NCBI GenBank assembly: GCA_964596525.1
Contig: CAZQUL010000001.1
Span: 140,830-204,829 of the forward strand
Length of the DNA: 64,000 nt
DNA from: an uncultured Gammaproteobacteria bacterium
GTDB taxonomy: Bacteria; Patescibacteriota; Patescibacteriia; Magasanikbacterales; GWA2-37-8
Reading direction: 5' to 3'
The notes below the pieces were generated by a model. It saw only the letters and a list, made by a program, of their open reading frames with translations, was not told where the DNA came from and searched no databases. Positions 29,427 through 54,392 of this stretch are shown piece by piece (position 1 is the first letter of the stretch; every line of letters begins with the position of its first letter). The position numbers and the translations under genes are program-made.

Positions 29427-32400
29427 ATGCCTCATTCTTTTTTGGCAGGAAGCGTCAAAGTGTTCACCGCTTTTCTCATTATAATCTGCACTATCTTCGG
29501 GAGGGGTTTTTTTCGTTTAAGCGCGGCTGAAGCGCGTGAAATTTCTGCATTTGAATCAGCTGCTGAACAAACACCGCGACACCATCGCTACGTGGAAGGC
29601 GAAGTAATCGTCAAACACCGCGACTCATCGTTCAATCTGCGTGATGTCGGCGGCCGGATACGCTCGCGGACGTTTTGGGAAACTCGAGGTTTAAATGTCG
29701 AGCGGGAATTCCGGCGGCAGAATATAAACGTACTCAAGAGCCGCCGCGGACAAACAACCGAAGCAATGGTAAACGAACTCCGAAATGACCCGAACGTGGC
29801 ATTCGTTCAGCCCAACTACATCTACACGCCCGGCGCGATCGCGACCGACGATACGCTCCGCGAGAGTCTCTGGGGGCTCGATAACAGCGGGCAGACGGTA
29901 AACGGTTTGGCCGGTACAACAAACGCGGATATCAATGCACCCGAAGCCTGGGCCATCAACGAAGGTACGAACACAACGACGATCGTGGCCGTCATCGACA
30001 CCGGTGTTGCGTATAACCACCCAGATCTTCTGGCCAACATGTGGGATGGCACAAACTGCAAAGACGCGAACGGCAACGCACTCGGCAACTGCATTCACGG
30101 ATATGATTATGAAGACGGCGATAAAAATCCGGCACCGACTCATAACACGCACGGCACGCACGTGGCTGGCACCATCGCGGCGGTCAAAAATAATACAAAA
30201 GGCATTATCGGCGTTGCCCCGAACGTGCACATCATGGCACTCAAATCGAGCCTCACGACGACGAACATCATCAATGCTATGGATTTCGCCGAACAGAATG
30301 GCGCACGCATCATTAATGCCAGCTGGGGCGGTCCATCGAATGATCTCGCGCTCAAAGCCGCGATCGATGCGTTTCCTGGAATTTTTATAGCTGCAGCCGG
30401 CAACGATGCTTCGAATAACGATTCGACGCCTACTTATCCCTGCAACTTTACCTCTGCCAACCTTATCTGCGTTGCCGCCACCACGCAGACCGATGGCCTC
30501 GCTTCGTTTTCTAACTACGGCGCGACGAGTGTAGATGTAGGCGCACCCGGCACGAACATTTTAAGCGCCATCGATTCGTCGACCAAACTCAATGAAACGT
30601 TTCAGAGTCTTACGCCTCCGACATTACCTTCTGGCTGGACCACGACCGGCACGGCTGCCGCTTGGGCCACCGTCAACATCAGTGATTCTGGCACTATGCT
30701 CACGCCAGATCCGAATAATCCCTACGCCGACAACGCGAGCTCGTCCATCATTTCTTCATCGTTCGATCTTTCCACGTCGACCGGCGCGACATTCGATTTT
30801 CTCGCCCGCTGCCAAACCGAATACGCCACTACGAGCTGGCGCGATTACATGATCTTGGATTTTGGCTCGAGCAGCACCACGTTTACGGAATTCACCCGTT
30901 TCGATCAAGCCCAGCTCGATTTTTACAATGGCGTAAGTAATCCGGCAGGTACGGCCACGTATCATTTTCAAAATCTGCAAATTCCCACGCACTTTCTTAC
31001 CAGCACGTTCACGTTCCGTTTCCGTTGGATCACGAACGGCACGGACAACGCGTATGCCGGCTGCGCGGTCGATAACATCACGCTTGTCAGTTTCAGCGAT
31101 GGCGCGGATGAAAAGTACGGTTTCCTGAACGGTACGTCCATGGCTACGCCGCACGTGGTGGGCCTGGCCGGGCTCCTTCTCGGGTACAAACCAAACCTCA
31201 GCATATCGCAGCTCAAAACCGCCATCTTAAACACCGGCACGACGCTCGCGGGCCTTACCGGCAAAAGCACCACTGCCAAACGCATCGATGCCTACGCCGC
31301 GCTCGTTTCCGTTACCCCGCCGACCGCGGTAACATCCACTCCTCCAAGCGGATCAAGCAGCGTCGCGCTCTCGACCGTGCCGACTGTCACGTTTTCCAAA
31401 ACCATGGACACTTCGACCCTCGCGAGCGGCATTGAACTCCGGCTGTACGCCACGGATGCGCGGGTAACAACCACCGTTTCGAGTACTTTAAACCCGACGA
31501 TCGCTGTGGTACCAAGCGTAAGTTTGGCGCCCAGCACAACGTATTATCTCTTCGTCTCAACGAGCGTTAAAGATGCGGACGGCAATAATCTGGAAATACC
31601 CTGGAGTGCAGCCGACAAGGCCGCACACGCTTTTACCACCGGTCCCGATACGACCGCGCCCGTAATTACCATCCTTGGTGATAACCCCACCTCAACCCTG
31701 CGCGGTCTTATTTACATCGACCCAGGCGCAACGGCGCTCGATGACGTGGACGGCTCGGTTGCTGTTACGGTGACCGGCACGGTTGCCACCAGTACGGCAG
31801 GCGCATACAGCATCGTGTATTCGGCAACGGATAGCTCTTCCAACACCGCATTTGCCACGCGCACCGTGAACGTGGTGGCCGATACTACTGCACCCGTTAT
31901 CACCCTTAATGGTTCGAGCGTCATTACCATGTATGTCCGCGATATTTTTAATGACCCGGGCGCGTCGGCCATCGATAACGTCGACGGCAGTGTGAGCGTT
32001 TCAATTTCCGGATCGGTGAATATTACGAACGCCGGCAGTTACACGCTCACCTACACGGCCACGGATTCTTCGGGCAACATTGCAACCGTCACGCGCACAG
32101 TGAACGTCACCATTCCACCAGGCGGCGGAGGTGGGGGCGGTGGGGGTGGAGGCGGAGGTGGAGGTTACTCGGCTCCATCGTACACTGCGCCAACCACTCT
32201 TCCGGTAGCCGTTACGAGCACGCGGCTTACTGCACCGCTTCTAAGCCCGACGCCGATTGGACAATTCTTCCCTTTGAATATTCCGCTGACACCCGACACG
32301 ACAAGCATCGTCACCAGCGAAACGCCCCCCGCTCCCCCACCGTCCCGCATCGAAACGCTTCTCAAAAATCTCAAACCCGGCGATCGTAAAACGCAGGTAA

Positions 32401-32708
32401 AGGAATTACAGATTGAATTACAACGACTCGGATTCCTCAGTAAATCCATCACCCCCACCACGCTCTACGGCACAGCAACGGATGCAGCCGTAAAAAAATA
32501 CCGCGCCTCGCTTGCCAAAAAACCAGTTGTCGCCACGCCGACCATCGACGAACTCATCGCCACCACCAAATTCGGCACCACAAGCGACAAAGTGCGACAA
32601 CTCCAAACCTTGCTTAAAAATCTAGGCTTTCTCAAAGCTTCTCCTACCGGTTACTACGGCGCCGCAACGCGCACAGCGGTAACGGAGTATACAAAAAGTA
32701 AACGATAA
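29427..32708 (+). CDS. giant secreted subtilisin-like (S8) serine protease with Ig-like DUF5011 domains, a poly-Gly tract and two C-terminal PG-binding domains
   Basis: Signal peptide. I9-like propeptide. Catalytic triad motifs VAVIDTGVAYNHPDL / HGTHVAGTIAAV / GTSMATPHVVGLAGLL. Two DUF5011-like blocks (DTTAPVIT...YIDPGATALDDVDGSV). Tract GGGGGGGGGGGGGGG. Two PG_binding_1-like repeats at the C-terminus. Confidence 0.9.
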   Translation: MPHSFLAGSVKVFTAFLIIICTIFGRGFFRLSAAEAREISAFESAAEQTPRHHRYVEGEVIVKHRDSSFNLRDVGGRIRSRTFWETRGLNVEREFRRQNINVLKSRRGQTTEAMVNELRNDPNVAFVQPNYIYTPGAIATDDTLRESLWGLDNSGQTVNGLAGTTNADINAPEAWAINEGTNTTTIVAVIDTGVAYNHPDLLANMWDGTNCKDANGNALGNCIHGYDYEDGDKNPAPTHNTHGTHVAGTIAAVKNNTKGIIGVAPNVHIMALKSSLTTTNIINAMDFAEQNGARIINASWGGPSNDLALKAAIDAFPGIFIAAAGNDASNNDSTPTYPCNFTSANLICVAATTQTDGLASFSNYGATSVDVGAPGTNILSAIDSSTKLNETFQSLTPPTLPSGWTTTGTAAAWATVNISDSGTMLTPDPNNPYADNASSSIISSSFDLSTSTGATFDFLARCQTEYATTSWRDYMILDFGSSSTTFTEFTRFDQAQLDFYNGVSNPAGTATYHFQNLQIPTHFLTSTFTFRFRWITNGTDNAYAGCAVDNITLVSFSDGADEKYGFLNGTSMATPHVVGLAGLLLGYKPNLSISQLKTAILNTGTTLAGLTGKSTTAKRIDAYAALVSVTPPTAVTSTPPSGSSSVALSTVPTVTFSKTMDTSTLASGIELRLYATDARVTTTVSSTLNPTIAVVPSVSLAPSTTYYLFVSTSVKDADGNNLEIPWSAADKAAHAFTTGPDTTAPVITILGDNPTSTLRGLIYIDPGATALDDVDGSVAVTVTGTVATSTAGAYSIVYSATDSSSNTAFATRTVNVVADTTAPVITLNGSSVITMYVRDIFNDPGASAIDNVDGSVSVSISGSVNITNAGSYTLTYTATDSSGNIATVTRTVNVTIPPGGGGGGGGGGGGGGGYSAPSYTAPTTLPVAVTSTRLTAPLLSPTPIGQFFPLNIPLTPDTTSIVTSETPPAPPPSRIETLLKNLKPGDRKTQVKELQIELQRLGFLSKSITPTTLYGTATDAAVKKYRASLAKKPVVATPTIDELIATTKFGTTSDKVRQLQTLLKNLGFLKASPTGYYGAATRTAVTEYTKSKR

Positions 32709-38899: not shown

Positions 38900-40765
38900 T
38901 TAACAACCCGATGGGCGCAGGCTAAAACACGTCCCGCCGGAAGGGGCGTAGGCCTCAAAGCGATCGGGCGGTTCGCAGATAATGCCGGTCGTACCGTCAT
39001 CGCCCAGGGTAAAAACGTGGTTGGTGAAACCAAGGATATTGGTGTAGCGGAAACGATAGAGCGTACACCCGTTGCCATACGGCGTGTCCTTGGGCGCAGT
39101 GCCGCGGTTCGGCAGATAGCCGAGGGCCAGTGAGCAATCGTAGCCCAGGGCTAGCAGTGACCCATAGTCGCCATCCGCGGTCGATACGAGCACATGGTCG
39201 GTGCCTTTGCTGCACTGCACGACGAGACTCGAACTCGGAATCGCGTTCGTAGCAGCGACGAAGGCTGCGCGTTGGAAGGTATATCCGGCGCAGGCCGCGG
39301 GTGCAGTGCCGCTCGGTCCAAAACAGTAGCTGCTCGCCGGACTGACGAAGCGATTGATGGTGCGCCAGCACGATGGATCGTTGTCGACGAGGCCATCACC
39401 GTTGTCGTCGCGACCATTGCAGGTTTCGGGCATAGGTGGCGGGGCGGACATGTCGGGTGGGGGTGAGGAGGTCATGTCGGGCGGCGCAACGGGCGGATCT
39501 TGGCACCGACCATCTTTGCAGATAAATGCCCCAGGACAGGCGATGACGCTCGCAAAGCAGCCGGAAGCTGGGCAATCGACCAAGGTCTTGGCATCACGGC
39601 AGTACGACGCGGCACAGGCCTTAGATCGACACTTCCCATCATCACAACCACACGGACAGGAAACGACTTCGGAAGCACATCCGTCGGCGCTGCACGTTTG
39701 GCGCGTGGTGGGGTTGAGGCAGAAAGAAGAGGAAGGGGTACAACGATTAATCCCACATTCACCTTCTCCCTGACAACAGCCTGAACATGTCCCTGCCTTC
39801 ACCCATTGCAGACCATCAGGCCCGCATTCCTCGACGCTTTGAGTTCCGCCACAACGCTTTGAGCCGGGAGAGCAGATGCGCTGCGGGGCACGTTCGTTTA
39901 TCGGATCACACCATTCACGATACGCTGGCTTGGTACATCCAATAGTCGCCGTTGCTCCTGGAACTTTGACCGGTTCAGCGCAAACCGCCTTATCAGCTTC
40001 AAAGTTCTTCCAAGCCGGAACTTGTGCGCTAGCATCTTCGCACTCTCCACAAAACGCGAGGAGCCATTCCTTATCAGCCCACGGCTTCCATTTCTGAGAA
40101 AGTGCCGCACAAGCATCCAGGACACGTTCTGTATAAACATCTGCCGCTCGCAAGCAGCCATGACAAAACAAGGTACAGGCATGCCCGATAAGTTCAGCTT
40201 CCATAGTCGGACCGACAATTTTGTCGAGCCGAGTAAAACCGCGACCGAGACCGGTGTCAATTCCAACGGTTTGGACTTGATAACGGGCACTGGTGACCAA
40301 AGCAGGCACCGGAGCGGAGAGGTACTGTATTCTAAGGGGCGTCGAGAGGGCGCTAAAGAGGCATTCCGGGGAAGTATCGATGCCTAGAGTCCAGTTTTCA
40401 CATGGATCCAGAAAGTACGAATCCTGATAGTAGCAGGACTCGGACAGATCTGGACTCCGCGCGAACTGCAACTTGTTCTTAGGAAGATACTTCTCTTTCC
40501 CCGAACGTTCCATTTGAGGAAAAATGAGCTCCGCCTCAATTCCCAGAATCTCGCGCTCCCGTGTTGAACGGAAAAGCGGTTTTCGATTCCACAAGAGACG
40601 GGCGGCAGGATTCGCGCGCGAAACAGGAACCGTGACTTGAACTCCGTCAGGGACCCATTCAGTCAACGGAGGTAGCGGGGAATCGGCTTTCGAGGTCGCA
40701 ATGATCATGAGCGAACAAACGACCACGATCGAAAATATCTTGCGCGACTTTTTTACGGACGCCAT
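38900..40765 (-). CDS. secreted disulfide-rich protein with MopE-like putative metal-binding motif
   Basis: Signal peptide. More than 40 Cys in CxxC and CxnC repeats. ETCNGRDDNGDGLVDNDPSC resembles the putative metal-binding motif (CxGxDDDCDG). Pro-rich segment PPVAPPDMTSSPPPDMSAPPPMP. Confidence 0.6.
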   Translation of the reverse strand: MASVKKSRKIFSIVVVCSLMIIATSKADSPLPPLTEWVPDGVQVTVPVSRANPAARLLWNRKPLFRSTREREILGIEAELIFPQMERSGKEKYLPKNKLQFARSPDLSESCYYQDSYFLDPCENWTLGIDTSPECLFSALSTPLRIQYLSAPVPALVTSARYQVQTVGIDTGLGRGFTRLDKIVGPTMEAELIGHACTLFCHGCLRAADVYTERVLDACAALSQKWKPWADKEWLLAFCGECEDASAQVPAWKNFEADKAVCAEPVKVPGATATIGCTKPAYREWCDPINERAPQRICSPGSKRCGGTQSVEECGPDGLQWVKAGTCSGCCQGEGECGINRCTPSSSFCLNPTTRQTCSADGCASEVVSCPCGCDDGKCRSKACAASYCRDAKTLVDCPASGCFASVIACPGAFICKDGRCQDPPVAPPDMTSSPPPDMSAPPPMPETCNGRDDNGDGLVDNDPSCWRTINRFVSPASSYCFGPSGTAPAACAGYTFQRAAFVAATNAIPSSSLVVQCSKGTDHVLVSTADGDYGSLLALGYDCSLALGYLPNRGTAPKDTPYGNGCTLYRFRYTNILGFTNHVFTLGDDGTTGIICEPPDRFEAYAPSGGTCFSLRPSGC

Positions 40766-41475
40766 CTGCTTACCTCCTGGATACTCTGGTAGAACGGAAT
40801 ACCTTGCGGCTGACTTCCGGCTTCGATCTGAACGGAATATACTCGAGAATCATTTTGAATTCGAGCTAAATCCCGCACTGGACCACGGAGTGCGAGGCCG
40901 ACCACAACAAGAGAAGGACGTTCGAGCTCAAGAGCGTAATCCTTCTGCTCCCGCTCTAGCGCTCCTGGGCGACACATCTGATTACCCTCGGCACATAAGC
41001 GCTTCATCTCTTCGAACGAATCCTTACTAACCTGGATTTCTTGTTGATGGGCAGCTGCAAGCTCAGACAGCAGTTCGTCTTTGGCCGGCATTTCAGGATT
41101 GAAGTTGTAGAAACCTCCCCCGACTTCACCGGCGCGGGTATACCACGTAACGAAACTGGAGCTAGGGAAACTCTTGAACCAAGTGATCACTTCACGGGCC
41201 GGAATCTCACGCTTGAGAGCAATTTGAGCAACTACAACGCGCTCCGGATTGGCAGCACTCTGAACTTCCACGCCAGCGCGCAGCATGGCAAGCATATCAG
41301 CATGTGTTGTCGGCCAGTTATCGATGAATTTTTGCACTGCCCAATTCGGTGGGGCCGACTCCCCTGCCTTAAACCCATTACACCCGCTACCCCCGAGCGC
41401 GGCGAGTGTAAGAGTTGCAAAGAGTCCGAAAAGGAAGCGGCGTGATGGCGACATACGAGAAATGGGGTGAGGCAT
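40753..41475 (-). CDS. lipoprotein, hypothetical, translationally coupled to the Cys-rich protein gene
   Basis: Start MPHPISRMSPSRRFLFGLFATLTLAALGGSGC (lipobox) with a ggagga SD. 13-bp overlap with the downstream gene. Confidence 0.55.
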   Translation of the reverse strand: MPHPISRMSPSRRFLFGLFATLTLAALGGSGCNGFKAGESAPPNWAVQKFIDNWPTTHADMLAMLRAGVEVQSAANPERVVVAQIALKREIPAREVITWFKSFPSSSFVTWYTRAGEVGGGFYNFNPEMPAKDELLSELAAAHQQEIQVSKDSFEEMKRLCAEGNQMCRPGALEREQKDYALELERPSLVVVGLALRGPVRDLARIQNDSRVYSVQIEAGSQPQGIPFYQSIQEVSRWRP

Positions 41476-41661
41476 AATTCTTTCCTCCATCGTAGAAGGG
41501 TTGGTGAGTTGTGTAAAGAGCGTCATGCTCAAGAAGCAACAAAAAACTATCGACGCATGCGATAGCTCGTCCCCTCTTTGATGAGTAACCTACTCTGATT
41601 GAAAATGATGTAAAGAGTTTTGTGTGGATAAGAAACAAAAATTTTATCGAAATTTTATAAA

Positions 41662-44580
41662 TTAGAATAGTTTCTTCCGCAGCACCGCTCCGATGCCGAC
41701 AGCTGCTACGGCGGCGACCGAAAAAATGATGGTTTTCGGATACGAGGAACTCTTGCTTCTTGTCGATTGATTTAATGATGAAATCACCGAAGAACTGGAA
41801 TCAGTTTTTTCTATCACTTCAACATCGGCCACGCCGCGCGGCCAGAGCTCCACACCCTTCGTGCCGTTTTCAAGAACGCCGGTCACGATAAGTTCGCTTC
41901 CTTCGGCAAGCGTAGTGCTCGTAAGACCAGTGCCAGTTTTGATGGTAGCGAGAAGCTCGGCTGTACCGTCATCGAGATACCAACTCGTGCGTTTACGTTC
42001 GGTGAGTTCGGCACGAACGCTAATAAGCATGCCGAAGTGATCGAGTGACAAATCTTCAATTGCGAAGGAGTCGGTAGCAGCGAGTGAACGTGTGCCAACG
42101 CGGGTAATATCGGCGGCAGTTTTTATGAGAATACGCGGGCGGCTTTGCGCGATGGAGATGGTACCGCGAACACGCACTTCATCGCCAAGCTTTAACGCCG
42201 GAAACTGGCTTTTGCTTTGGAATAACGCGAGGCCACCACTCTCGTCACTCAGGTATGCAATTTGTTTACCAAAAATGCCGGGTACGCTGGTAATGACACC
42301 TTGCACATCAACCGGTGTACCAGATGGCAGAAGACGAATATCGGCAAGACGCGCACTCACGACGGTTTTAGATTTTGCAGCCGTTTTCGTCGTTGTTTTT
42401 TTGGTGGTGGCAGGTTTGGTGGTTTTTGTTTTTGATGTTGAGGTAGAGGAACTTGTTTTTTTAGTGGCGGATGGTTGTTCGAGGGCAACTTTGGTGATGA
42501 CGAAATCCCCGCTCGATTCGCTGAAGGGCGGTTGCGTTGGCATAGTCATCCATGCCGTCCCGTTCGTAGTGTAGGAAAAACCATTATTCAACCGAGGTAC
42601 GCTGACCGTACTCACGCGCTCACCAAAACGGTTATAGAGCTCGACGGTCGTAGCACTTTTTGGCACCTCAAGACCGGTTGCGGGTGCAAAGAATACGGCA
42701 GTCTCGCGCGGGGCAAGAATGGTTTTTTCTGGAATCGTGAACCGCGAACGTCCAAGTGCGAGCTGCCAACCGTCGAGGTCGATGGCGATCGAATCGTTGT
42801 TTATGATTTTTATAAACGACGGAAGAACACCTTCGCTCTCGGCCGCGACTTCCGTTACCATGACTAATCCTTGTTCGGCGGGAATTCCATCGGCCGCCGT
42901 GAACACGAACGGGAAGCTACCGACCGAACCGCGCGAGGTGGCGGCGCTCACGACTCCACGATATGTGCCCGCTACGATTGGCGTAAACGTGAGGCGCGAA
43001 CCTGTGCCAATAACAGCGTCGTCAATGATCCAGGTGAGTACGAGGCGTCCGCCGCGTTTGTCAAAGGTGCGCGAGGCATCGAAAGTTACCGCACGGTGTA
43101 CCGGAACATGTCGTGGCGCAAGTACATTCCAAATGACGCCAGATGATAGCGTGGTCGGCGCTGGTTTGTTCGGTGTTGCCGCGCCGCGCGCCCACGTAGT
43201 ATCGACAAGACGCTGCAGACTTTCGGTTCCTTCGGGGAGCGGATCAAGAATGAGCATGTCGGCTACGGAATCATCATCACGAAAAAGCCAGAGCGTGCCG
43301 CTGACAGACGTGGGGCCGAAAAGTTTGGTGGTGCGGTTATAGAACGTACGAAAAGCGCGACGCTCGATAACCCCGTCGAGCGCGTACACCGTGTTATTCA
43401 TGGCCAAACGCCAGCCGGAGAGACTGACTCGCTCATCGGTATGATTGTATAGCTCGATAAATCCGCTGTCAGTTACCAAAACCTCACTTAGATATAAAGG
43501 CGACGTTGATGTGGTGAAAAAAATATACCCCGGTTTTTTGAGACTGGTTTGACTGGTTATACCACCCGAAAAGCCGGAGCTGCCGCTTGAGGATGGTGGC
43601 GGAGCCGCCTCTTCTTCGTTTACAGGAGAGGTAACAATATTGCTTGAACCAAACGTGCGTGTCGTTGAAAGCACCCACGATCCGCCACCATCGACCGAGC
43701 GGACCAACACGTCGTTGCTCGATGGCACGAGCTCGTCGGCATATGTTAGTTCATCGATGACAGTTCCGGCAGGGTCCTTAAGGATCACTTTGTCACCGCC
43801 GTTGTTGAGCTTGCTGCCCGTGATAGTAACAACCGCGAATCCGCCGGGGGCGATCGTTCCTTCGAGCGTGGCGATGAGGCACGAGGTGGCACGATCATCG
43901 CAGAGCGTACCACCCGTAAGATCCATGGCGCTTGAACCAGTGTTAAAAAGCTCGACAAGCTCGGTACCGTCCGTTGGCGCCACAAGAATTTCGTTCAAAC
44001 GAAGCTTGCTCCAGTCGGCCGTACCCGGCGGATCATCAGGCGGAGGCGCGGTAGACCCACCGCTATTCGCAAATCCCACGCTACTGCCTGATGGGTGTAC
44101 GCCCCAGTTGGCAAGCGTATAATCAGCTGACGCGAAATTTTTCCGTTCAAGCGAGGTTTTCTGATGCGCGGGATACGTAAAGATCTCCGCCACCGCATTC
44201 GCGCTGTCGTAGAGGCCGATCTCTTCGCCATTTTCGCTTAGACTCGTCCACACGGAATCAAAAATCGGCACGGCCACTTCGGGATGATCAATAGCGAACT
44301 GCGCCGCGTCTTGGGCGATGACGGCATAGCTGCCCGGCGCGATTGTTGTACCGTGTCTAAAGGCCGTAAGAGCATGCTTCACACCTCCTTCCCAAAACTT
44401 CCATCCGCTCATATCAAACGAAATAGAGCCGGTATTATGCACCTCCACCCATTCATGCGTGCTGGTAGGATACGCACCGATTTCGCTCACGACAAGCGAT
44501 GAGGCAGCATGCGTTTGAATAGCATTAAAAAATAAAACGATACATGAAACAGCAAAAAGTAACCCTCCGTACCGAGTCAT
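41662..44580 (-). CDS. giant surface protein with four lamin-tail domains (LTD), a Thr/Lys-rich linker, a C-terminal OB-like domain and a C-terminal TM anchor
   Basis: Signal peptide. LTD signatures VVSEIGAYPTSTHEWVEVHNTGSISFDMSGWKF, LRLNEILVAPTDGTELVELFNTGSSAMDLTGGTL, LYLSEVLVTDSGFIELYNHTDERVSLSGWRL, VMVTEVAAESEGVLPSFIKIINNDSIAIDLDGWQL. Linker TKTKTTKPATTKKTTTKTAAKSK. Terminal IIFSVAAVAAVGIGAVLRKKLF. Confidence 0.8.
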   Translation of the reverse strand: MTRYGGLLFAVSCIVLFFNAIQTHAASSLVVSEIGAYPTSTHEWVEVHNTGSISFDMSGWKFWEGGVKHALTAFRHGTTIAPGSYAVIAQDAAQFAIDHPEVAVPIFDSVWTSLSENGEEIGLYDSANAVAEIFTYPAHQKTSLERKNFASADYTLANWGVHPSGSSVGFANSGGSTAPPPDDPPGTADWSKLRLNEILVAPTDGTELVELFNTGSSAMDLTGGTLCDDRATSCLIATLEGTIAPGGFAVVTITGSKLNNGGDKVILKDPAGTVIDELTYADELVPSSNDVLVRSVDGGGSWVLSTTRTFGSSNIVTSPVNEEEAAPPPSSSGSSGFSGGITSQTSLKKPGYIFFTTSTSPLYLSEVLVTDSGFIELYNHTDERVSLSGWRLAMNNTVYALDGVIERRAFRTFYNRTTKLFGPTSVSGTLWLFRDDDSVADMLILDPLPEGTESLQRLVDTTWARGAATPNKPAPTTLSSGVIWNVLAPRHVPVHRAVTFDASRTFDKRGGRLVLTWIIDDAVIGTGSRLTFTPIVAGTYRGVVSAATSRGSVGSFPFVFTAADGIPAEQGLVMVTEVAAESEGVLPSFIKIINNDSIAIDLDGWQLALGRSRFTIPEKTILAPRETAVFFAPATGLEVPKSATTVELYNRFGERVSTVSVPRLNNGFSYTTNGTAWMTMPTQPPFSESSGDFVITKVALEQPSATKKTSSSTSTSKTKTTKPATTKKTTTKTAAKSKTVVSARLADIRLLPSGTPVDVQGVITSVPGIFGKQIAYLSDESGGLALFQSKSQFPALKLGDEVRVRGTISIAQSRPRILIKTAADITRVGTRSLAATDSFAIEDLSLDHFGMLISVRAELTERKRTSWYLDDGTAELLATIKTGTGLTSTTLAEGSELIVTGVLENGTKGVELWPRGVADVEVIEKTDSSSSVISSLNQSTRSKSSSYPKTIIFSVAAVAAVGIGAVLRKKLF

Positions 44581-44775
44581 ATGAACTCCTTAGTTTTAAA
44601 ATTGCTCGACTGTAGCAAAGTTAAAATCGGAGCGCCAGGCTTTGGAGTGGATAAAAAACTCTAAAAAAACTAAAAGCGCGCAATTAAGAGAAGAAGAGAG
44701 AAAAATCACTATCGGAATATTATAAAGATTCTATATTTTCTTTATCCGAAAGTAGTCGCGGGTCTGAAACATAAT

Positions 44776-44921
44776 GTCATTACGAGAAAGGAGTCAAGCG
44801 ACTGACGAAGCAATCTCCTCGTTAGCAAAGCAAGCTTTTAAATACTGAGGGATTGCCCGCCCGGCACGCCTTCTGCTGCCATGGCGGACGGGCTTCGTCA
44901 CTACGTTCCTCGCAATGACAT
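44776..44921. repeat. nested palindromic intergenic repeat, copy A
   Basis: Outer arms gtcattacgag/ctcgcaatgac, inner arms gacgaagcaatc/gggattgc...cttcgtc. The right arm carries a ~35-bp CCATGG-centred palindromic insert. Related copies at 53521 and 57885. Confidence 0.7.
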
Positions 44922-44954
44922 TTTAGAGGCTTGCCAGGTACTACAAATACGATC

Positions 44955-45689
44955 TCACAACAACTCAAATAACAATCGAAATAATTTTTTCTGAAATTCC
45001 GCGAAGGTGGCGTTTTCTACCACCCATGCGGTCATGGAGTTGTAATCGACGAACGCGACTGTGTCGGCGTAAACGATCTGCGAAATGTTATACGTGAACA
45101 CATCGAAACGCGCCGGAACGTTTTTGATAAGACGACCAAGGCGTGGTTTTTTACGGCTAGCCGCCACTTCGTTAGTGATGATATAGCGATTCAGATCTCC
45201 GTCCGGACCGGTGCGCGTAAAATATTTCTGCGGCAAATACGAACGGTTCTGGCGATGATTTTTGTGCGACTCGTAGCGATAAAACGTTTCGCCTTTACCG
45301 AGGCGGTTCACCATGTCGGAAAAAACTTGGCGGATACCCTCGGGTCCGCTGTAGACGCGGATCGTCGGCTTGTCGCTGCCTTCGCGGTAGAGGGCAAGCA
45401 GTTCGGGTAAAAGCTCGGCACGCTCGCTCTTGGCACGTTCGGCCCGTTCTTCGAGGACATGCGGGGACTCGGCTGCATATACTGTGCGCTTGCCGCGGCG
45501 CGCCTCGCTCGCGAGTCCTTCGGCGGCGAGCGATGGCGCCAAACGGTATACTGCGGTACGCGAGAATGCAGTGTGCCGGGCGATTTCGGCAATGGTCTGT
45601 GGCCCGCGGGTAAGCAGCGTATAATATACCTGTGCCTGATCGAGCGAAAGACCGAGATGTTCAAAAAGATGGCGATAACGTTTATTCAT
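44955..45689 (-). CDS. TrmB-family transcriptional regulator
   Basis: N-terminal wHTH (LSLDQAQVYYTLLTRGPQTIAEIARHTAFSRTAVYRLAPSLAAEGL) and TrmB-like C-terminal domain. Confidence 0.65.
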   Translation of the reverse strand: MNKRYRHLFEHLGLSLDQAQVYYTLLTRGPQTIAEIARHTAFSRTAVYRLAPSLAAEGLASEARRGKRTVYAAESPHVLEERAERAKSERAELLPELLALYREGSDKPTIRVYSGPEGIRQVFSDMVNRLGKGETFYRYESHKNHRQNRSYLPQKYFTRTGPDGDLNRYIITNEVAASRKKPRLGRLIKNVPARFDVFTYNISQIVYADTVAFVDYNSMTAWVVENATFAEFQKKLFRLLFELL

Positions 45690-49510: not shown

Positions 49511-51064
49511 GTGGGCACAATAGAAGACTTTGGTTTTCTTTCTTGCTTTATGTTTTTCTCATTGCGCGCTGGTGCGGTCATCGGGCTTGAATGCACAGCA
49601 GTCGATGTGGAAGTGGATCTCAACAAAGGTCAGACTTCATTTGCGATTGTTGGGCTTGGCGACACGGCCATTAAAGAAGCTAAGGATCGCATTTTTTCCG
49701 CGTTCAAAAACTCGCAATTTTCGTACCCGTTTAATTTCCGCATCGTCATTAATTTAGCGCCGGCGGATTTGGCCAAAGAAGGTCCGGCGTATGATCTGCC
49801 AATGGCGATCGGGCTTATTGCTTTATCGCACAGTTTGAACCTGGCAGTGGATGACGCGCTTATCGTCGGTGAACTTGGGCTTGATGGCAGCGTGCGGCAT
49901 GTCACGGGCATTTTACCGCTCACGCTTTTTGCCAAAGAGCGCGGGCTTAAACGAGTGTTTGTGCCCGCACCCGACGCGCGCGAAGCCGCACTGGTATCGG
50001 GCATTGACGTGTACCCGGTAAAAACGCTCCGTGAACTCGTGGATCATTTAACAGACACTTTGTCTATCGCACCGTTCCAAACCGCGCAAGGATCTGACGA
50101 CGCCGAGGCGGTTTCATACGAGTATGACATGGCGCAGGTGAAAGGACAGGAGTTCGCCAAGCGCGCGCTCGAGATCGCGGCGAGCGGCAACCACAACATT
50201 ATGATGAGCGGGCCGCCCGGGTCGGGCAAGACACTCTTAGCCCGGACTCTTCCGTCGCTCCTACCACCCCTCACCGAAACCGAAGCGCTCGAAGTCACCA
50301 AAATCTATTCGGTCGCCGGACTCCTCAAACACAATCTCGTGCGCGAACGACCATTTCGTTCACCGCACCACACGGCTTCGGGTGTGGCGCTCGTCGGCGG
50401 CGGGCGCGTGCCGCGGCCCGGTGAAATATCACTCGCACATCGCGGCATTTTGTTCCTCGACGAATTTCCGGAGTTCCCGCGGACCGTCATAGAAAACCTA
50501 CGCCAGCCGCTCGAGGATGGCATCGTCACTATTTCGCGCGCCGAAGGGACACTGTCGTTCCCGGCCCGGTTCATTCTGGTTGCGAGCCTCAATCCCTGCC
50601 CGTGCGGTTTCGCGAGCGATCCGGAGCGCGCCTGTACCTGCTCTCCTATACAAAAACTGCGCTACCAGAAAAAACTCTCCGGACCCCTGCTCGATCGCAT
50701 TGATTTGCATGTTGAGGTGCCGCGCGTACAATTCGACAAACTGACCGCGGAAACGAACGCGGAAACATCCGGGGTGATCCGTGAGCGGGTGCTTGCTGCG
50801 CGCGAGCGTCAAGCACGCCGCTTCAAGGGCACGCGCCTTCTCACCAATAGCGAGATGGGCAACCGCGAAATCAAAGAATACTGCAAACTGGACGAAGAAA
50901 GCATGGCACTTCTACGCACAGCCACGACGCAGCTGCATTTATCGGCACGCGTGTACCACCGCTTGCTCAAAGTGGCACGCACCATCGCGGATCTCGCAGG
51001 GAGTGACCGTATCGCCCTTCCTCATGTGGCTGAGGCGCTGCAACTGCGATCCAGGCAGGAATAA
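49511..51064 (+). CDS. YifB/ComM family Mg-chelatase-like AAA+ ATPase
   Basis: Lon-protease-like N-domain (NLAPADLAKEGPAYDLPMAIG), Walker A MSGPPGSGKT, C-terminal ChlI/ComM domain. Start may be a non-ATG codon slightly upstream. Confidence 0.85.
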   Translation: MGTIEDFGFLSCFMFFSLRAGAVIGLECTAVDVEVDLNKGQTSFAIVGLGDTAIKEAKDRIFSAFKNSQFSYPFNFRIVINLAPADLAKEGPAYDLPMAIGLIALSHSLNLAVDDALIVGELGLDGSVRHVTGILPLTLFAKERGLKRVFVPAPDAREAALVSGIDVYPVKTLRELVDHLTDTLSIAPFQTAQGSDDAEAVSYEYDMAQVKGQEFAKRALEIAASGNHNIMMSGPPGSGKTLLARTLPSLLPPLTETEALEVTKIYSVAGLLKHNLVRERPFRSPHHTASGVALVGGGRVPRPGEISLAHRGILFLDEFPEFPRTVIENLRQPLEDGIVTISRAEGTLSFPARFILVASLNPCPCGFASDPERACTCSPIQKLRYQKKLSGPLLDRIDLHVEVPRVQFDKLTAETNAETSGVIRERVLAARERQARRFKGTRLLTNSEMGNREIKEYCKLDEESMALLRTATTQLHLSARVYHRLLKVARTIADLAGSDRIALPHVAEALQLRSRQE

Positions 51065-53639: not shown

Positions 53640-54392
53640 TCATTGTATTCTACTGACGCTCCACAAAATATCAAACCACTGGCGGAGCATGAGCGTCAAG
53701 GACGGGCTCGTTATCACAACCCCAATCCCCTCTTCTTTGCGGCTAAAGAATGCGACGGATTGGTCCCAAATAAAGAGCGATGTCACGAATGTACAACTCG
53801 GCGGCAAAAACCGCACCTCACGGCGTTCGAGTCGGTTGCGTTCTTTGGTGTAATTTTTGATTTCTTCGCTCGCGACACGCAGGCTCTTGAGAGCCAATCC
53901 TTTGGCCACACGACGACGATTAAAGTGCATTTTCTCGCCCAAAACACGCTGCAAATCGCGCGGTGAAACAATTTCATAGATAATCCGATCTTTAGCTTCA
54001 AGGATTTCGTAGAAAACGGTGCGCACGTGTTCACGGTACAATACGCGCACGCCGATGCGCGCAGAGGGCTCTTCGCGAATTTCTTTAAGAAACGGCATGA
54101 TTCCGGCCAGCTCCTCGAGTAAGCGCTCGGTTTGTTTTTTGAGTGTCTCGGGCGGCAACGCGGCGTAGTGATGCCGCGAACCGCGTTTAGTGGCGACCAC
54201 GATCCCCTTTTCCATAAGGCGTTTGATGATGGACTGCACTGTCGAGACTGGCACATCGAGACGCGTCGCGAGCGGCGAGAGCGTAAGGGGCGATTCAGCG
54301 ATAAGCGCCAAGTACACCGATTGTTCGGGCACGCTTAAACCGTAACGGGCAAGCACTTCGGAGATTTCTTGTTTAGCATCAGCATCAATCAT
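53640..54392 (-). CDS. TrmB-like transcriptional regulator (paralogue of 44955..45689)
   Basis: wHTH (LSVPEQSVYLALIAESPLTLSPLATRLDVPVSTVQSIIKRLMEKGIV) plus a TrmB-like C-terminal domain. Confidence 0.6.
   Translation of the reverse strand: MIDADAKQEISEVLARYGLSVPEQSVYLALIAESPLTLSPLATRLDVPVSTVQSIIKRLMEKGIVVATKRGSRHHYAALPPETLKKQTERLLEELAGIMPFLKEIREEPSARIGVRVLYREHVRTVFYEILEAKDRIIYEIVSPRDLQRVLGEKMHFNRRRVAKGLALKSLRVASEEIKNYTKERNRLERREVRFLPPSCTFVTSLFIWDQSVAFFSRKEEGIGVVITSPSLTLMLRQWFDILWSVSRIQ

What the first reader, a model, noticed from the sequence alone, without database searches (positions are those of the whole stretch)
41662..44580. 972-aa surface protein with four lamin-tail domains, a Thr/Lys-rich linker, an OB-like module and a C-terminal membrane anchor
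There are four tandem LTD-type signatures (hydrophobic-SE-I/V...E-h-V-E-L-h-N...h-D-L-S/T-G-W). The lamin-tail domain is an Ig-like fold named after eukaryotic lamins. It is found in bacteria mainly in secreted proteins of unknown role. Here four copies are followed by a low-complexity linker (TKTKTTKPATTKKTTTKTAAKSK), a globular C-terminal region and a hydrophobic C-terminal tail. The gene heads an operon that also encodes a lipoprotein and a disulfide-rich secreted protein. This suggests a surface adhesion or nucleic-acid/cell binding apparatus.
Basis: partly seen in the sequence, partly recalled or inferred. Interest (0 to 1): 0.55.

Follow-up and report, generated by a model that had tools for sequence, protein, structure and literature searches.

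The report
Membrane-anchored LTD/tandem-OB putative DNA-binding surface protein
This gene from an ultrasmall (CPR/Patescibacteria-type) bacterium encodes a long, membrane-tethered surface protein whose membrane-proximal end looks like a DNA-gripping module. It is most likely a receptor for extracellular DNA that lacks any DNA-cutting domain, rather than part of a three-gene adhesion operon.

Summary
The described protein is real. ORF 41662..44580 (-) encodes 972 aa with a signal peptide, four lamin-tail domains (Pfam E 6e-51), a Lys/Thr-rich basic linker and a C-terminal TM helix plus RKKLF tail. The "OB-like module" is in fact two tandem OB barrels (AF2 pLDDT 91.5). Its top-ranked solved-structure matches are tandem-OB DNA binders (POT1, HIN-200, RPA70).

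This ~180-aa module defines a large family (2050 cluster representatives). It sits a median of 20 residues before a C-terminal TM anchor. It overlaps Pfam DUF5689, the family of Bacteroides DdbD and of a Riemerella protein required for natural transformation. Relatives fuse it to ComEA-type helix-hairpin-helix or staphylococcal-nuclease domains. No catalytic domain exists in this protein.

Best reading (about 0.55): a nuclease-less, ExeM/DdbD-like cell-surface receptor for extracellular DNA.

The three-gene operon is not supported. A hairpin with a T-run and a separate RBS follow the gene. The lipoprotein and Cys-rich genes form an independent conserved pair elsewhere, and they are absent beside eight homologs.

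DNA binding is inferred, not shown. The LTDs are acidic, so an adhesin role for the distal array remains open.

The parts
41662..44580 (-). Complete gene, 972 aa plus stop: SP - LTD1 - LTD2 - LTD3 - PKD - LTD4 - basic K/T linker - OB1 - OB2 - Ser-rich stalk - TM - RKKLF
   Evidence: ORF list. Pfam. Full-length AF2 model with seven all-beta domains separated by disordered linkers.
44586..44591 (-). Ribosome-binding site AAGGAG, 5 nt upstream of the ATG
   Evidence: Read directly from the sequence.
44506..44580 (-). Signal peptide, aa 1-25 (n-region MTRYGG, hydrophobic core, ...THA|AS)
   Evidence: Hydropathy windows aa 3-26, KD up to 1.79. Aligned N-terminal signals in all 10 homologs. The cleavage site is inferred by eye; no SignalP run was possible.
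44086..44499 (-). LTD1 (aa 28-165), the most conserved domain of the family; its N-terminus resembles the ExeM N-terminal LTD
   Evidence: PF00932 52.4 bits. NF033680 ExeM partial hit aa 20-133, E 7.9e-5. Mean pairwise identity 0.49.
43651..44013 (-). LTD2 (aa 190-310), with a Cys pair (C227/C233, 'TLCDDRATSCLIA') kept in close homologs
   Evidence: PF00932 54.0 bits. Alignment. Mean pairwise identity 0.45.
43165..43506 (-). LTD3 (aa 359-472), a divergent copy
   Evidence: PF00932 31.9 bits, partial, just under the 34.3 cutoff when scanned alone. Beta-sandwich with pLDDT around 70-90 in the model.
42892..43140 (-).
   Evidence: PKD_4 18.6 bits, below threshold. Foldseek ColG PKD 4tn9_A TMt 0.86, rmsd 1.8 A. 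PF18911 in 30/62 relatives. pI.
42529..42867 (-). LTD4 (aa 572-684)
   Evidence: PF00932 45.5 bits.
42361..42528 (-). Disordered Lys/Thr/Ser-rich basic linker (aa 685-740). The charge figures are for aa 691-740: pI 10.4, 11 K+R against 2 D+E
   Evidence: Sequence and charge. pLDDT below 50 for aa 686-738. Basic in most but not all homologs.
42085..42360 (-). OB1 (aa 741-832), first barrel of the tandem-OB module; basic (pI 10.5)
   Evidence: PF01336 24.9-26.0 bits against a cutoff of 27, E 9e-6 to 2e-5. AF2 pLDDT 91.5 for the module. Foldseek hits to POT1, HIN, RPA70.
41806..42084 (-). OB2 (aa 833-925), second barrel; acidic (pI 4.4)
   Evidence: AF2 model. No Pfam hit when scanned alone (protein 7). 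pI.
41740..41805 (-). Ser-rich membrane-proximal stalk (aa 926-947)
   Evidence: Sequence. pLDDT below 50. Across 140 relatives the gap from module end to TM has a median of 20 residues.
41665..41739 (-). C-terminal TM helix plus cytoplasmic basic tail RKKLF (aa 948-972); no LPXTG, GlyGly-CTERM or PEP-CTERM signal
   Evidence: Hydropathy up to KD 2.09. Helix 949-971 in the model. No sorting-signal family in NCBIfam at E<=1. 138/164 relatives have a C-terminal hydrophobic helix.
41544..41568 (-). Terminator-like hairpin with T-run, 94 nt downstream of the stop codon; probable end of a monocistronic transcript
   Evidence: Pattern scan, where the overall count was not above the shuffle expectation. 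Sequence read.
38900..41475 (-). NOT part of the unit. Adjacent independent two-gene pair: a 240-aa predicted lipoprotein (ATG 41475, lipobox-like GGSGC) and a 621-aa Cys-rich secreted protein (start 40765, 13-nt overlap with the lipoprotein gene)
   Evidence: Own RBS GGAGG. Called as 240 + 621 aa in L009/L010. The pair is conserved without an LTD gene in L011 and L012. Absent from 8 LTD-homolog loci. No Pfam or NCBIfam hits.

Best explanation
The gene encodes a type-I, C-terminally membrane-anchored cell-surface protein of a CPR/Patescibacteria-type bacterium. It most likely acts as a non-catalytic receptor for extracellular nucleic acid, most probably DNA.

Proposed mechanism:
1. After Sec export and signal-peptide cleavage, the protein stays tethered by its C-terminal helix, with RKKLF inside the cell.
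2. About 20 residues above the membrane sits a tandem-OB module. It is related to DUF5689/DdbD, and its fold resembles HIN-200, POT1 and RPA70. Together with the adjoining basic K/T-rich linker and the basic PKD domain, it binds DNA without sequence specificity.
3. This holds DNA next to the membrane, where uptake machinery (ComEC, type IV pili) or separate nucleases can act on it. The role is topologically like ComEA in monoderm bacteria, and like the LTD-OB substrate-binding portion of ExeM/Xds with the nuclease removed.
4. The four acidic LTDs plus the PKD domain form a long beads-on-a-string arm that projects through or over the cell wall. Its well-conserved tip (LTD1-LTD2) engages a still unknown partner.

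Shown: the domain architecture, the topology signals, the tandem-OB fold prediction, the family relationships, the fusions in relatives and the absence of a catalytic domain.
Inferred: DNA as the ligand, coupling to uptake or degradation, and the role of the LTD arm.
For: 1. Fold. The C-terminal module is confidently predicted (pLDDT 91.5, pTM 0.85) as two OB barrels. The 50 best-ranked Foldseek PDB hits listed are all tandem-OB DNA binders: POT1 (E 1.3e-6), p204/IFI16/AIM2/p202 HIN-200 including 4jbm, Teb1, RPA70 DBD-AB and Taq SSB.
2. Sequence family. PF01336 'OB-fold nucleic acid binding' matches 13/13 subfamily modules (best E 1.9e-14) and 61/62 wider relatives.
3. DUF5689 link. DUF5689 matches 10/13 subfamily modules (best 4.4e-10) and 33/62 relatives (best 9.6e-15). 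The module profile hits an NCBI-named DUF5689 protein at E 1.6e-6 against 5.8e9 sequences. DUF5689 is the annotation of DdbD in the B. thetaiotaomicron DNA-utilisation locus, whose model resembles p202 HIN 4JBM (bioRxiv 10.1101/2025.03.18.642099). It is also one of two domains of Riemerella RA0C_RS04920, which is essential for natural transformation (PMC8459023).
4. Domain fusions in module-bearing relatives. ComEA-type HHH_3 is fused N-terminally to LTDs-(PKD)-OB in P0076, P0095, P0106 and P0144. An SNase nuclease is inserted among LTDs and OBs in P0047, P0056 and P0082.
5. Precedents for LTD plus OB or nuclease in extracellular DNA processing. ExeM (PMC6085458), Xds (PMC6746945), an Izemoplasma 1049-aa protein (PMC8289736) and Haloferax Hvo_1477, which combines LTD and thermonuclease (PMC5118699).
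6. Membrane-proximal placement. In 161 relatives the module ends a median of 54 residues from the C-terminus. In 140 of them a hydrophobic helix follows after a median of 20 residues.
7. Charge. OB1 has pI 10.5, the linker 10.4 and the PKD domain 11.2.
8. No catalytic domain. All 972 residues are accounted for by seven beta domains, linkers, the signal peptide and the TM helix.
9. Biological setting. CPR bacteria have ComEC, DprA, ComFC and type IV pili, and Saccharibacteria are naturally competent (PMC10633639).
Against: - No experiment or direct computation shows DNA binding by this protein.
- The query's own OB1 scores just below the PF01336 cutoff (26.0 against 27 bits), and the query itself does not hit DUF5689. 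That link is transitive through relatives.
- Foldseek TM-scores are only 0.3-0.45, so the barrel-barrel geometry differs from HIN and RPA.
- OB folds also bind non-nucleic ligands. 4/13 modules also hit the periplasmic BOF family, whose ligand is unknown.
- All four LTDs and OB2 are acidic (pI 4.2-4.9), so most of the ectodomain is unlikely to bind a polyanion directly. OB1 is basic in only 7/11 family members.
- No ComEC, ComEA, pilus or secreted-nuclease gene was found among about 45 window ORFs scanned.
- The nearby ComM/YifB gene travels with housekeeping genes (LspA, DksA-type zinc finger, LysM-M23) and may reflect plain synteny.
- In Saccharibacteria, com genes were dispensable for growth, which weakens a nucleotide-scavenging rationale.
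- The full-length fold search mainly returns extended multi-Ig surface proteins, including adhesins and S-layer proteins.
Confidence: 0.55

Rival explanations
1. Host-cell or surface adhesin. The LTD/PKD array is an extended stalk whose conserved LTD1-LTD2 tip binds a host envelope component or a substrate surface. The OB module is only a membrane-proximal base, or binds oligosaccharide.
For: The beads-on-a-string all-beta ectodomain resembles SiiE, the ice-binding adhesin, GhpA and S-layer proteins in Foldseek. LTD1 and LTD2 are the most conserved parts (0.49 and 0.45 mean pairwise identity). The LTDs are acidic and so poorly suited to DNA. Cultivated CPR bacteria are episymbionts that need multiple adhesins (PMC10633639). 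The LTD was dispensable for nuclease activity in Xds.
Against: This does not explain why the invariant core of the family is the tandem-OB module plus anchor, while the number of LTDs varies from zero to four. It also does not explain the fusions to ComEA-HhH and SNase or the overlap with DUF5689/DdbD. No known adhesin family was matched by Pfam or NCBIfam.
Confidence: 0.25
2. Substrate-capture arm for nucleotide scavenging. The protein binds eDNA or RNA to present it to separately encoded secreted nucleases, feeding nucleoside import rather than transformation. This is a functional sub-variant of the main explanation.
For: SNase-containing relatives have the same LTD/OB frame. ExeM, Xds, Hvo_1477 and Izemoplasma give nuclease precedents. 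DdbD acts in DNA catabolism. CPR bacteria lack nucleotide synthesis. The window carries nucleotide-salvage-type genes: PurA, PRPP synthetase and Ham1.
Against: No secreted nuclease gene lies next to the gene. Com genes were not needed for growth in Saccharibacteria, although that concerns ComEC and not nucleases.
Confidence: 0.15
3. One reading: a three-gene surface apparatus in which the LTD protein, the lipoprotein and the Cys-rich secreted protein are co-transcribed and work together.
For: All three genes are on the same strand and adjacent, and all three products are predicted to be exported. A Roizmanbacteria paper notes a secreted Cys-rich protein gene near an LTD protein gene (PMC6509639); homology to this pair was not tested.
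Against: A 186-nt gap with a terminator-like hairpin, a promoter-like site and a separate RBS follows the LTD gene. Neither partner is present in 8 LTD-homolog loci. The pair recurs on its own in L011 and L012, next to unrelated opposite-strand genes.
Confidence: 0.05
4. Cryptic extracellular nuclease: a true ExeM-like enzyme with an unrecognised catalytic domain.
For: LTD1 gives a weak match to the ExeM N-terminus. The overall SP-LTD-OB-TM frame is shared with ExeM/Xds.
Against: No EEP, SNase, metallo-beta-lactamase or other hydrolase hit appears at E<=1. The full-length model contains only beta-sandwich and beta-barrel domains plus disordered linkers, leaving no unassigned globular region.
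Confidence: 0.03

Closest known systems
ExeM (Shewanella oneidensis) / Xds (Vibrio cholerae) extracellular nucleases
   Same: Signal peptide, N-terminal LTD (the query's LTD1 gives the only NCBIfam hit, to ExeM positions 17-127), an OB-fold nucleic-acid-binding region, a linker and a C-terminal TM anchor with a basic tail. Both are retained at the cell envelope and act on extracellular DNA.
   Different: There is no EEP nuclease domain, which is half of ExeM and its defining activity. The query has four LTDs plus a PKD domain instead of one LTD. Its OB module is DUF5689-like. No GlyGly-CTERM or rhombosortase signal was detected. The whole-protein score is 20.9 bits against a cutoff of 1300. 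It works like the substrate-binding part of ExeM but is not a member.
DUF5689 proteins: DdbD (B. thetaiotaomicron ddbABCDEF) and RA0C_RS04920 (Riemerella anatipestifer natural transformation)
   Same: The tandem-OB module overlaps the PF18942 profile (positions 42-217) in relatives. DdbD has the same HIN/p202-like (4JBM) structural resemblance (against my). Both are extracellular and non-catalytic, and DdbD is linked genetically to exogenous DNA uptake and metabolism.
   Different: [quoted passage not shown] RA0C_RS04920 also carries DUF5017 and choice-of-anchor J domains. Here the module is tethered by a C-terminal TM helix in a putatively monoderm-type CPR cell and carries an LTD/PKD arm. 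The query itself does not reach any PF18942 score.
ComEA, the membrane-anchored dsDNA receptor of competent bacteria
   Same: A membrane-tethered, non-catalytic, sequence-independent DNA-binding role close to the membrane is proposed. Four relatives of this family carry a bona fide ComEA-type HHH_3 domain on the same LTD-OB-TM frame.
   Different: The query has no helix-hairpin-helix domain. Its anchor is C-terminal rather than N-terminal (the N-terminal position in ComEA is from my own knowledge). There is no sequence homology.
LTD-nuclease fusion proteins: Haloferax Hvo_1477 (LTD + thermonuclease), the Ca. Izemoplasma 1049-aa protein, and relatives P0047/P0056/P0082
   Same: LTDs are combined with nucleic-acid-binding OB domains in exported proteins tied to extracellular DNA metabolism.
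   Different: Those proteins carry an SNase/thermonuclease domain. The query does not.
HIN-200 domains (AIM2, IFI16, p202, p204), POT1 and RPA70 DBD-A/B
   Same: They share a two-barrel tandem-OB arrangement. They are the best structural matches (E 1e-6 to 1e-4).
   Different: The similarity is at fold level only (TM 0.3-0.45, 9-16% identity). Those are eukaryotic cytosolic or nuclear proteins. There are no Pfam HIN or POT1 hits.

Membership tests
Lamin-tail-domain (PF00932) containing proteins | HMM match above the Pfam gathering score | tested here: met
   171.8 bits against 34.3, four stretches. Three of the four copies exceed the cutoff when scanned alone; LTD3 scores 31.9 bits.
Lamin-tail-domain (PF00932) containing proteins | Ig-like beta-sandwich fold | tested here: met
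   The full-length AF2 model gives all-beta domains at aa 28-165, 190-305, 360-470 and 572-682 with pLDDT mostly 70-90.
ExeM/Xds (NF033680) extracellular nuclease | Whole-protein NCBIfam score at or above the 1300-bit cutoff | tested here: not met
   20.9 bits, covering the N-terminal LTD region only.
ExeM/Xds (NF033680) extracellular nuclease | C-terminal endonuclease/exonuclease/phosphatase (EEP) catalytic domain | tested here: not met
   No EEP or other hydrolase family at E<=1. No unassigned globular region in the model.
ExeM/Xds (NF033680) extracellular nuclease | Signal peptide + LTD + OB region + C-terminal hydrophobic anchor with basic tail | tested here: met
   Feature list taken from PMC6085458.
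DUF5689 (PF18942; DdbD / RA0C_RS04920) | HMM match to PF18942 | tested here: inconclusive
   The query gives no hit at E<=5. However, 10/13 modules of its own subfamily hit (best 4.4e-10), as do 33/62 wider relatives (best 9.6e-15). The module profile finds an NCBI-named DUF5689 protein at E 1.6e-6.
DUF5689 (PF18942; DdbD / RA0C_RS04920) | HIN/p202-like tandem-OB predicted structure | tested here: met
   Foldseek hits to 4jbm_A/B (E 5e-5 to 9e-5, TM 0.43-0.44) and other HIN domains. The same comparison is reported for DdbD.
DUF5689 (PF18942; DdbD / RA0C_RS04920) | Encoded next to a TonB-dependent transporter (DdbC-like) and nucleases | tested here: not met
   No TonB-dependent transporter or secreted nuclease among the window ORFs scanned or in homolog loci.
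DUF5689 (PF18942; DdbD / RA0C_RS04920) | Required for uptake or metabolism of exogenous DNA | not testable with these tools
   This needs genetics or biochemistry.
ComEA DNA receptor | Helix-hairpin-helix (HHH_3) DNA-binding domain | tested here: not met
   No HHH family hit in the query. The domain is present in relatives P0076, P0095, P0106 and P0144.
PKD domain (PF18911/PF00801) | HMM match above cutoff, or a PKD beta-sandwich fold | tested here: met
   The HMM is below threshold (18.6 against 27 bits). The structural match to ColG PKD 4tn9_A is TMt 0.86, rmsd 1.8 A. Homologs pass the HMM, for example P0095 at 71.5 bits.
Sortase (LPXTG) / GlyGly-CTERM / PEP-CTERM sorted surface proteins | Recognisable sorting motif before the C-terminal helix | tested here: not met
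   No LPXTG, GG or PEP motif in ...SSSYPKTIIFSVAAVAAVGIGAVLRKKLF. No sorting-signal model in NCBIfam at E<=1. Homologs share only a basic-Tyr pattern (K/R-K/R-Y) before the helix.
BOF (PF04076; YdeI/YgiW periplasmic OB proteins) | HMM match to PF04076 | tested here: not met
   The query does not hit. 4/13 subfamily modules hit (best 2e-6). A JGI label 'YdeI (BOF family)' is attached to P0009.

The most novel reading that the evidence does not exclude
The C-terminally anchored tandem-OB module (with or without LTD arms) is the dedicated extracellular-DNA receptor of CPR/Patescibacteria. It would be a monoderm-type counterpart of Bacteroidota DdbD and a functional analog of ComEA, holding incoming DNA at the membrane for ComEC and type IV pilus uptake. 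The LTD arm would reach beyond the wall to find DNA, possibly at the host surface. This would define a new, very widespread class of DNA receptors (more than 2000 50%-identity clusters) and give a molecular handle on how ultrasmall symbionts acquire DNA.
Probability: 0.25. Interest if true: 0.75.

Novelty: new variant of a known kind. Interest (0 to 1): 0.5.

Why it matters
CPR/Patescibacteria are a large share of bacterial diversity. They cannot make nucleotides, and at least some are naturally competent, yet how they first capture extracellular DNA at the cell surface is not described (PMC10633639 lists ComEC, DprA, ComFC and pili).

If this family is the membrane-tethered DNA-binding component, three things follow:
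- It links three so far separate observations into one theme: LTD plus OB in the ExeM/Xds nucleases, DUF5689/DdbD in Bacteroidota DNA utilisation and transformation, and the multi-LTD proteins of CPR bacteria.
- It gives DUF5689 and the bacterial LTD a testable functional context.
- It supplies a concrete target (the roughly 185-aa tandem-OB module) for binding assays and for knock-outs in the few tractable Saccharibacteria.

If instead the protein is an adhesin, it is an ordinary multi-Ig surface protein.

Tried and rejected
Led nowhere:
- The search for related loci with the family alignment failed because no stretch was conserved enough. The single-protein genome scan returned only one locus, a Ca. 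Magasanikbacteria MAG.
- Sequence search of the PDB with the full protein found nothing. With the module profile it found only weak OB hits, E>=0.014.
- An exact look-up of the window protein's contig failed.
- The contexts of stand-alone module proteins P0174 and P0170 were uninformative.
- Literature searches found no paper describing LTD-OB surface proteins in CPR bacteria.

Considered and rejected:
- A hidden nuclease domain: no hits and no unassigned fold.
- A sortase, rhombosortase or exosortase sorting signal.
- The three-gene operon.
- Functional coupling to the nearby ComM/YifB gene. It recurs near homologs, but so do LspA, the DksA-type zinc finger and LysM-M23. I therefore treat it as lineage synteny, not evidence.
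- Paralogs in the window: none found.
- The terminator and promoter calls are pattern matches whose overall counts do not exceed shuffles. They are used only as supporting evidence.

Full report
OBSERVATION

The ORF at 41662..44580 on the minus strand is real and encodes 972 aa. It is preceded by AAGGAG 5 nt before the ATG. Pfam gives LTD (PF00932) at E 6.2e-51 with four matched stretches. Scanned as separate segments, the four copies score 52.4, 54.0, 31.9 and 45.5 bits. Hydropathy shows only two hydrophobic segments: an N-terminal signal (aa 3-26) and a C-terminal helix (aa 948-969) followed by RKKLF. The quoted linker is at aa 717-739, and the aa 691-740 stretch has pI 10.4. The title of the finding is therefore correct.

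There are two amendments. A PKD-type Ig domain lies between LTD3 and LTD4 (aa 481-563). It is below the Pfam threshold in the query, but it superposes on the ColG PKD domain at TMt 0.86 and rmsd 1.8 A, and it passes Pfam in many relatives. The 'OB-like module' is two tandem OB barrels, not one.

ANATOMY

A full-length AlphaFold2 model (11-sequence alignment, mean pLDDT 69.9) shows seven all-beta globular domains:

| Domain | Residues |
|---|---|
| LTD1 | 28-165 |
| LTD2 | 190-305 |
| LTD3 | 360-470 |
| PKD | 481-563 |
| LTD4 | 572-682 |
| OB1 | 741-830 |
| OB2 | 838-923 |

The domains are separated by disordered linkers (aa 171-187, 313-358, 686-738, 925-954). The only helices of note are the signal peptide and the TM anchor. 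Nothing is left over that could be a catalytic domain, and no hydrolase family is hit.

The charge is strikingly partitioned:
- The four LTDs and OB2 are acidic (pI 4.2-4.9).
- The PKD domain (11.2), the K/T linker (10.4) and OB1 (10.5) are basic.

Across 11 full-length homologs (24-36% identity, same domain order), the most conserved parts are the distal LTD1 (0.49) and LTD2 (0.45), then OB1 (0.39). Linkers are poorly conserved, at 0.12-0.29.

THE C-TERMINAL MODULE IS THE CORE OF A LARGE FAMILY

The module alone (aa 740-930) folds with pLDDT 91.5 and pTM 0.85. Its best 50 PDB matches listed by Foldseek are all tandem-OB DNA binders: POT1, the HIN-200 domains of p204/IFI16/AIM2/p202, Teb1, RPA70 DBD-A/B and Thermus SSB. 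E-values run from 1e-6 to about 5e-4, although TM-scores are only 0.3-0.45.

An exhaustive HMMER search of 1.84 billion cluster representatives finds 2050 proteins at E<=1e-3 and 1146 at E<=1e-10, with lengths from 150 to 1511 aa. In 161 retrieved proteins the module ends a median of 54 residues before the C-terminus. In 140 of them a hydrophobic helix follows after a median gap of 20 residues. 22 of the 161 carry 2-6 tandem copies. So the invariant unit is 'tandem OB plus short stalk plus C-terminal TM anchor', and the LTD/PKD arm is a variable addition.

Pfam on 62 of these proteins:

| Family | Proteins of 62 |
|---|---|
| PF01336 (nucleic-acid-binding OB) | 61 |
| LTD | 49 |
| DUF5689 | 33 |
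| PKD_4 | 30 |
| BOF | 7 |
| SNase | 2 |
| HHH_3 | 1 |

Among the modules of the query's own subfamily scanned alone, 13/13 hit PF01336 and 10/13 hit DUF5689. The query's own module reaches 26.0 bits against the PF01336 cutoff of 27. It does not hit DUF5689 itself, so that link is transitive.

LINKS TO EXTRACELLULAR DNA

1. DUF5689 occurs in only three papers of the searchable library. The two listed both concern DNA uptake. DdbD of the B. thetaiotaomicron ddbABCDEF DNA-utilisation locus is a DUF5689 protein. Its AlphaFold model resembles the dsDNA-binding p202 HIN domain 4JBM, and it is proposed as the substrate-binding partner of the transporter DdbC. RA0C_RS04920 of Riemerella anatipestifer (DUF5689 + DUF5017) is essential for natural transformation. 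My independent fold search hit the same 4jbm entry. The module profile also retrieves an NCBI-named DUF5689 protein at E 1.6e-6 against 5.8e9 sequences.
2. Relatives fuse the same frame to undisputed DNA-handling domains. A ComEA-type HHH_3 domain sits at the N-terminus of P0076, P0095, P0106 and P0144. P0095 is HHH_3-LTDx3-PKD-OB, almost the query's architecture. A staphylococcal nuclease domain occurs in P0047, P0056 and P0082.
3. LTD plus OB plus nuclease plus C-terminal anchor is the architecture of ExeM and Xds. In both, the OB region is essential for nuclease activity. The LTD is dispensable in Xds; in ExeM it is dispensable for DNA clearing in vivo, and its loss slows degradation in vitro. 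The query's only NCBIfam hit is LTD1 to the ExeM N-terminus.
4. LTD-nuclease proteins are also tied to eDNA metabolism in Ca. Izemoplasma and Haloferax.

CONTEXT AND THE OPERON CLAIM

The window looks like a CPR/Patescibacteria chromosome. It carries PBP1, FemAB, TGT, PRPP synthetase, PurA, LysM-M23 peptidase, ComM/YifB, several PG-binding surface proteins and two TrmB-type regulators. It derives from a 1.34-Mb NCBI contig. The nearest named relative of the protein is in a Ca. Magasanikbacteria MAG.

Downstream of the LTD gene there is a 186-nt gap. It contains a hairpin with a T-run (41568..41544), a promoter-like site, and a separate GGAGG RBS with an ATG at 41475. The following 240-aa lipoprotein gene and 621-aa Cys-rich gene overlap by 13 nt.

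Neither protein has a homolog in eight loci that carry LTD-family homologs, whereas LysM-M23 and ComM do recur there. The Cys-rich protein has only three homologs. In the two whose contexts I examined (L011, L012), the same overlapping pair is present with no LTD gene nearby. The three-gene 'apparatus' is therefore a local adjacency, not a conserved unit.

One caveat: a Roizmanbacteria study mentions an LTD gene near a secreted Cys-rich protein gene. Homology to this pair was not tested.

MECHANISM

The best-supported reading is a non-catalytic, membrane-tethered receptor for extracellular DNA. The tandem-OB module, helped by the basic linker and the PKD domain, would hold DNA about 20 residues above the membrane. 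That is the position where ComEA works in monoderm bacteria. The acidic LTD arm would project outward.

- Shown: architecture, topology signals, fold, family links and the absence of a catalytic domain.
- Inferred: DNA as the ligand, hand-off to ComEC and pili (known in CPR bacteria) or to nucleases, and what the conserved LTD1-2 tip binds.

Confidence is about 0.55. The main rival (about 0.25) is a host or surface adhesin. It is favoured by the adhesin-like overall shape, the acidic LTDs and the conserved tip. It does not explain the conserved OB-anchor core or the HhH and SNase fusions.

COMPARISON AND NOVELTY

The protein works like the substrate-binding part of ExeM/Xds and like DdbD. It fails membership of ExeM (no EEP domain, 20.9 against 1300 bits), of ComEA (no HhH) and, strictly, of DUF5689 (the query does not reach the HMM and there is no TonB-dependent partner). 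It is best filed as a new variant of a known kind: a nuclease-less, C-terminally TM-anchored LTD array on a DUF5689-like tandem-OB module, typical of CPR bacteria. I found no description of this architecture in the searchable literature.

Interest is moderate at 0.5.

Noticed in passing
window 38900-41475 (-); L011 9300-11875; L012 1042-3617: A 240-aa predicted lipoprotein gene and a 621-aa Cys-rich secreted protein gene overlap by 13 nt. They form a conserved two-gene unit found in only three other metagenomic genomes (42-45% identity); I checked the pairing in two of them. Neither protein has a Pfam or NCBIfam match. The function is unknown, and the unit is independent of the LTD gene.
   Followed up: partly
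window 49511-51064 (+); L001 4721-6238; L002 1-213: A ComM/YifB-type Mg-chelatase-like AAA+ gene lies 4.9 kb from the LTD gene and recurs near LTD-family homologs (68% identity in L001). It travels together with LspA, a DksA-type zinc-finger gene and a LysM-M23 peptidase gene. This is probably lineage synteny. ComM is a transformation helicase in other bacteria (my own knowledge).
   Followed up: partly
window 44581-44954, especially 44892-44917 (-): The 374-nt upstream intergenic region contains a GC-rich segment, CATTGCGAGGAACGTAGTGACGAAGC, followed by a partly complementary 'GCTTCGTCAG'. It is unique in the window. It may be a regulatory element or a small repeat of the kind seen in CPR genomes.
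   Followed up: partly
window 44955-45689 (-) and 53640-54392 (-): There are two TrmB-family winged-helix regulators in the window. One sits immediately upstream of the LTD gene on the same strand and is a possible regulator of it. This was not tested.
   Followed up: no
proteins P0021, P0023, P0024 (1411-1511 aa): Some relatives carry 5-6 tandem copies of the whole tandem-OB module, that is 10-12 OB barrels in a row, and lack a C-terminal hydrophobic helix. This is a different, possibly secreted, multivalent form.
   Followed up: no
window 43885-43905 (-), aa 226-232 region of LTD2: A conserved Cys pair (C227, C233; 'LCD.R....C') occurs in LTD2 of the close homologs. It suggests a disulfide-stapled loop that could be a ligand-binding site.
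   Followed up: no
window 29427-32708 (+), 6338-8341 (-), 2934-4559 (-): Three large exported proteins end in PG_binding_1 domains: an S8 subtilase with Ig-like domains, a Glug/Big_13 protein, and a T2SS-T3SS_pil_N protein. They indicate a peptidoglycan-attached surface proteome in this organism.
   Followed up: no
PMC6509639 (Roizmanbacteria), no window coordinates: [quoted passage not shown] This hints that the LTD / Cys-rich adjacency may recur in another CPR lineage.
   Followed up: no
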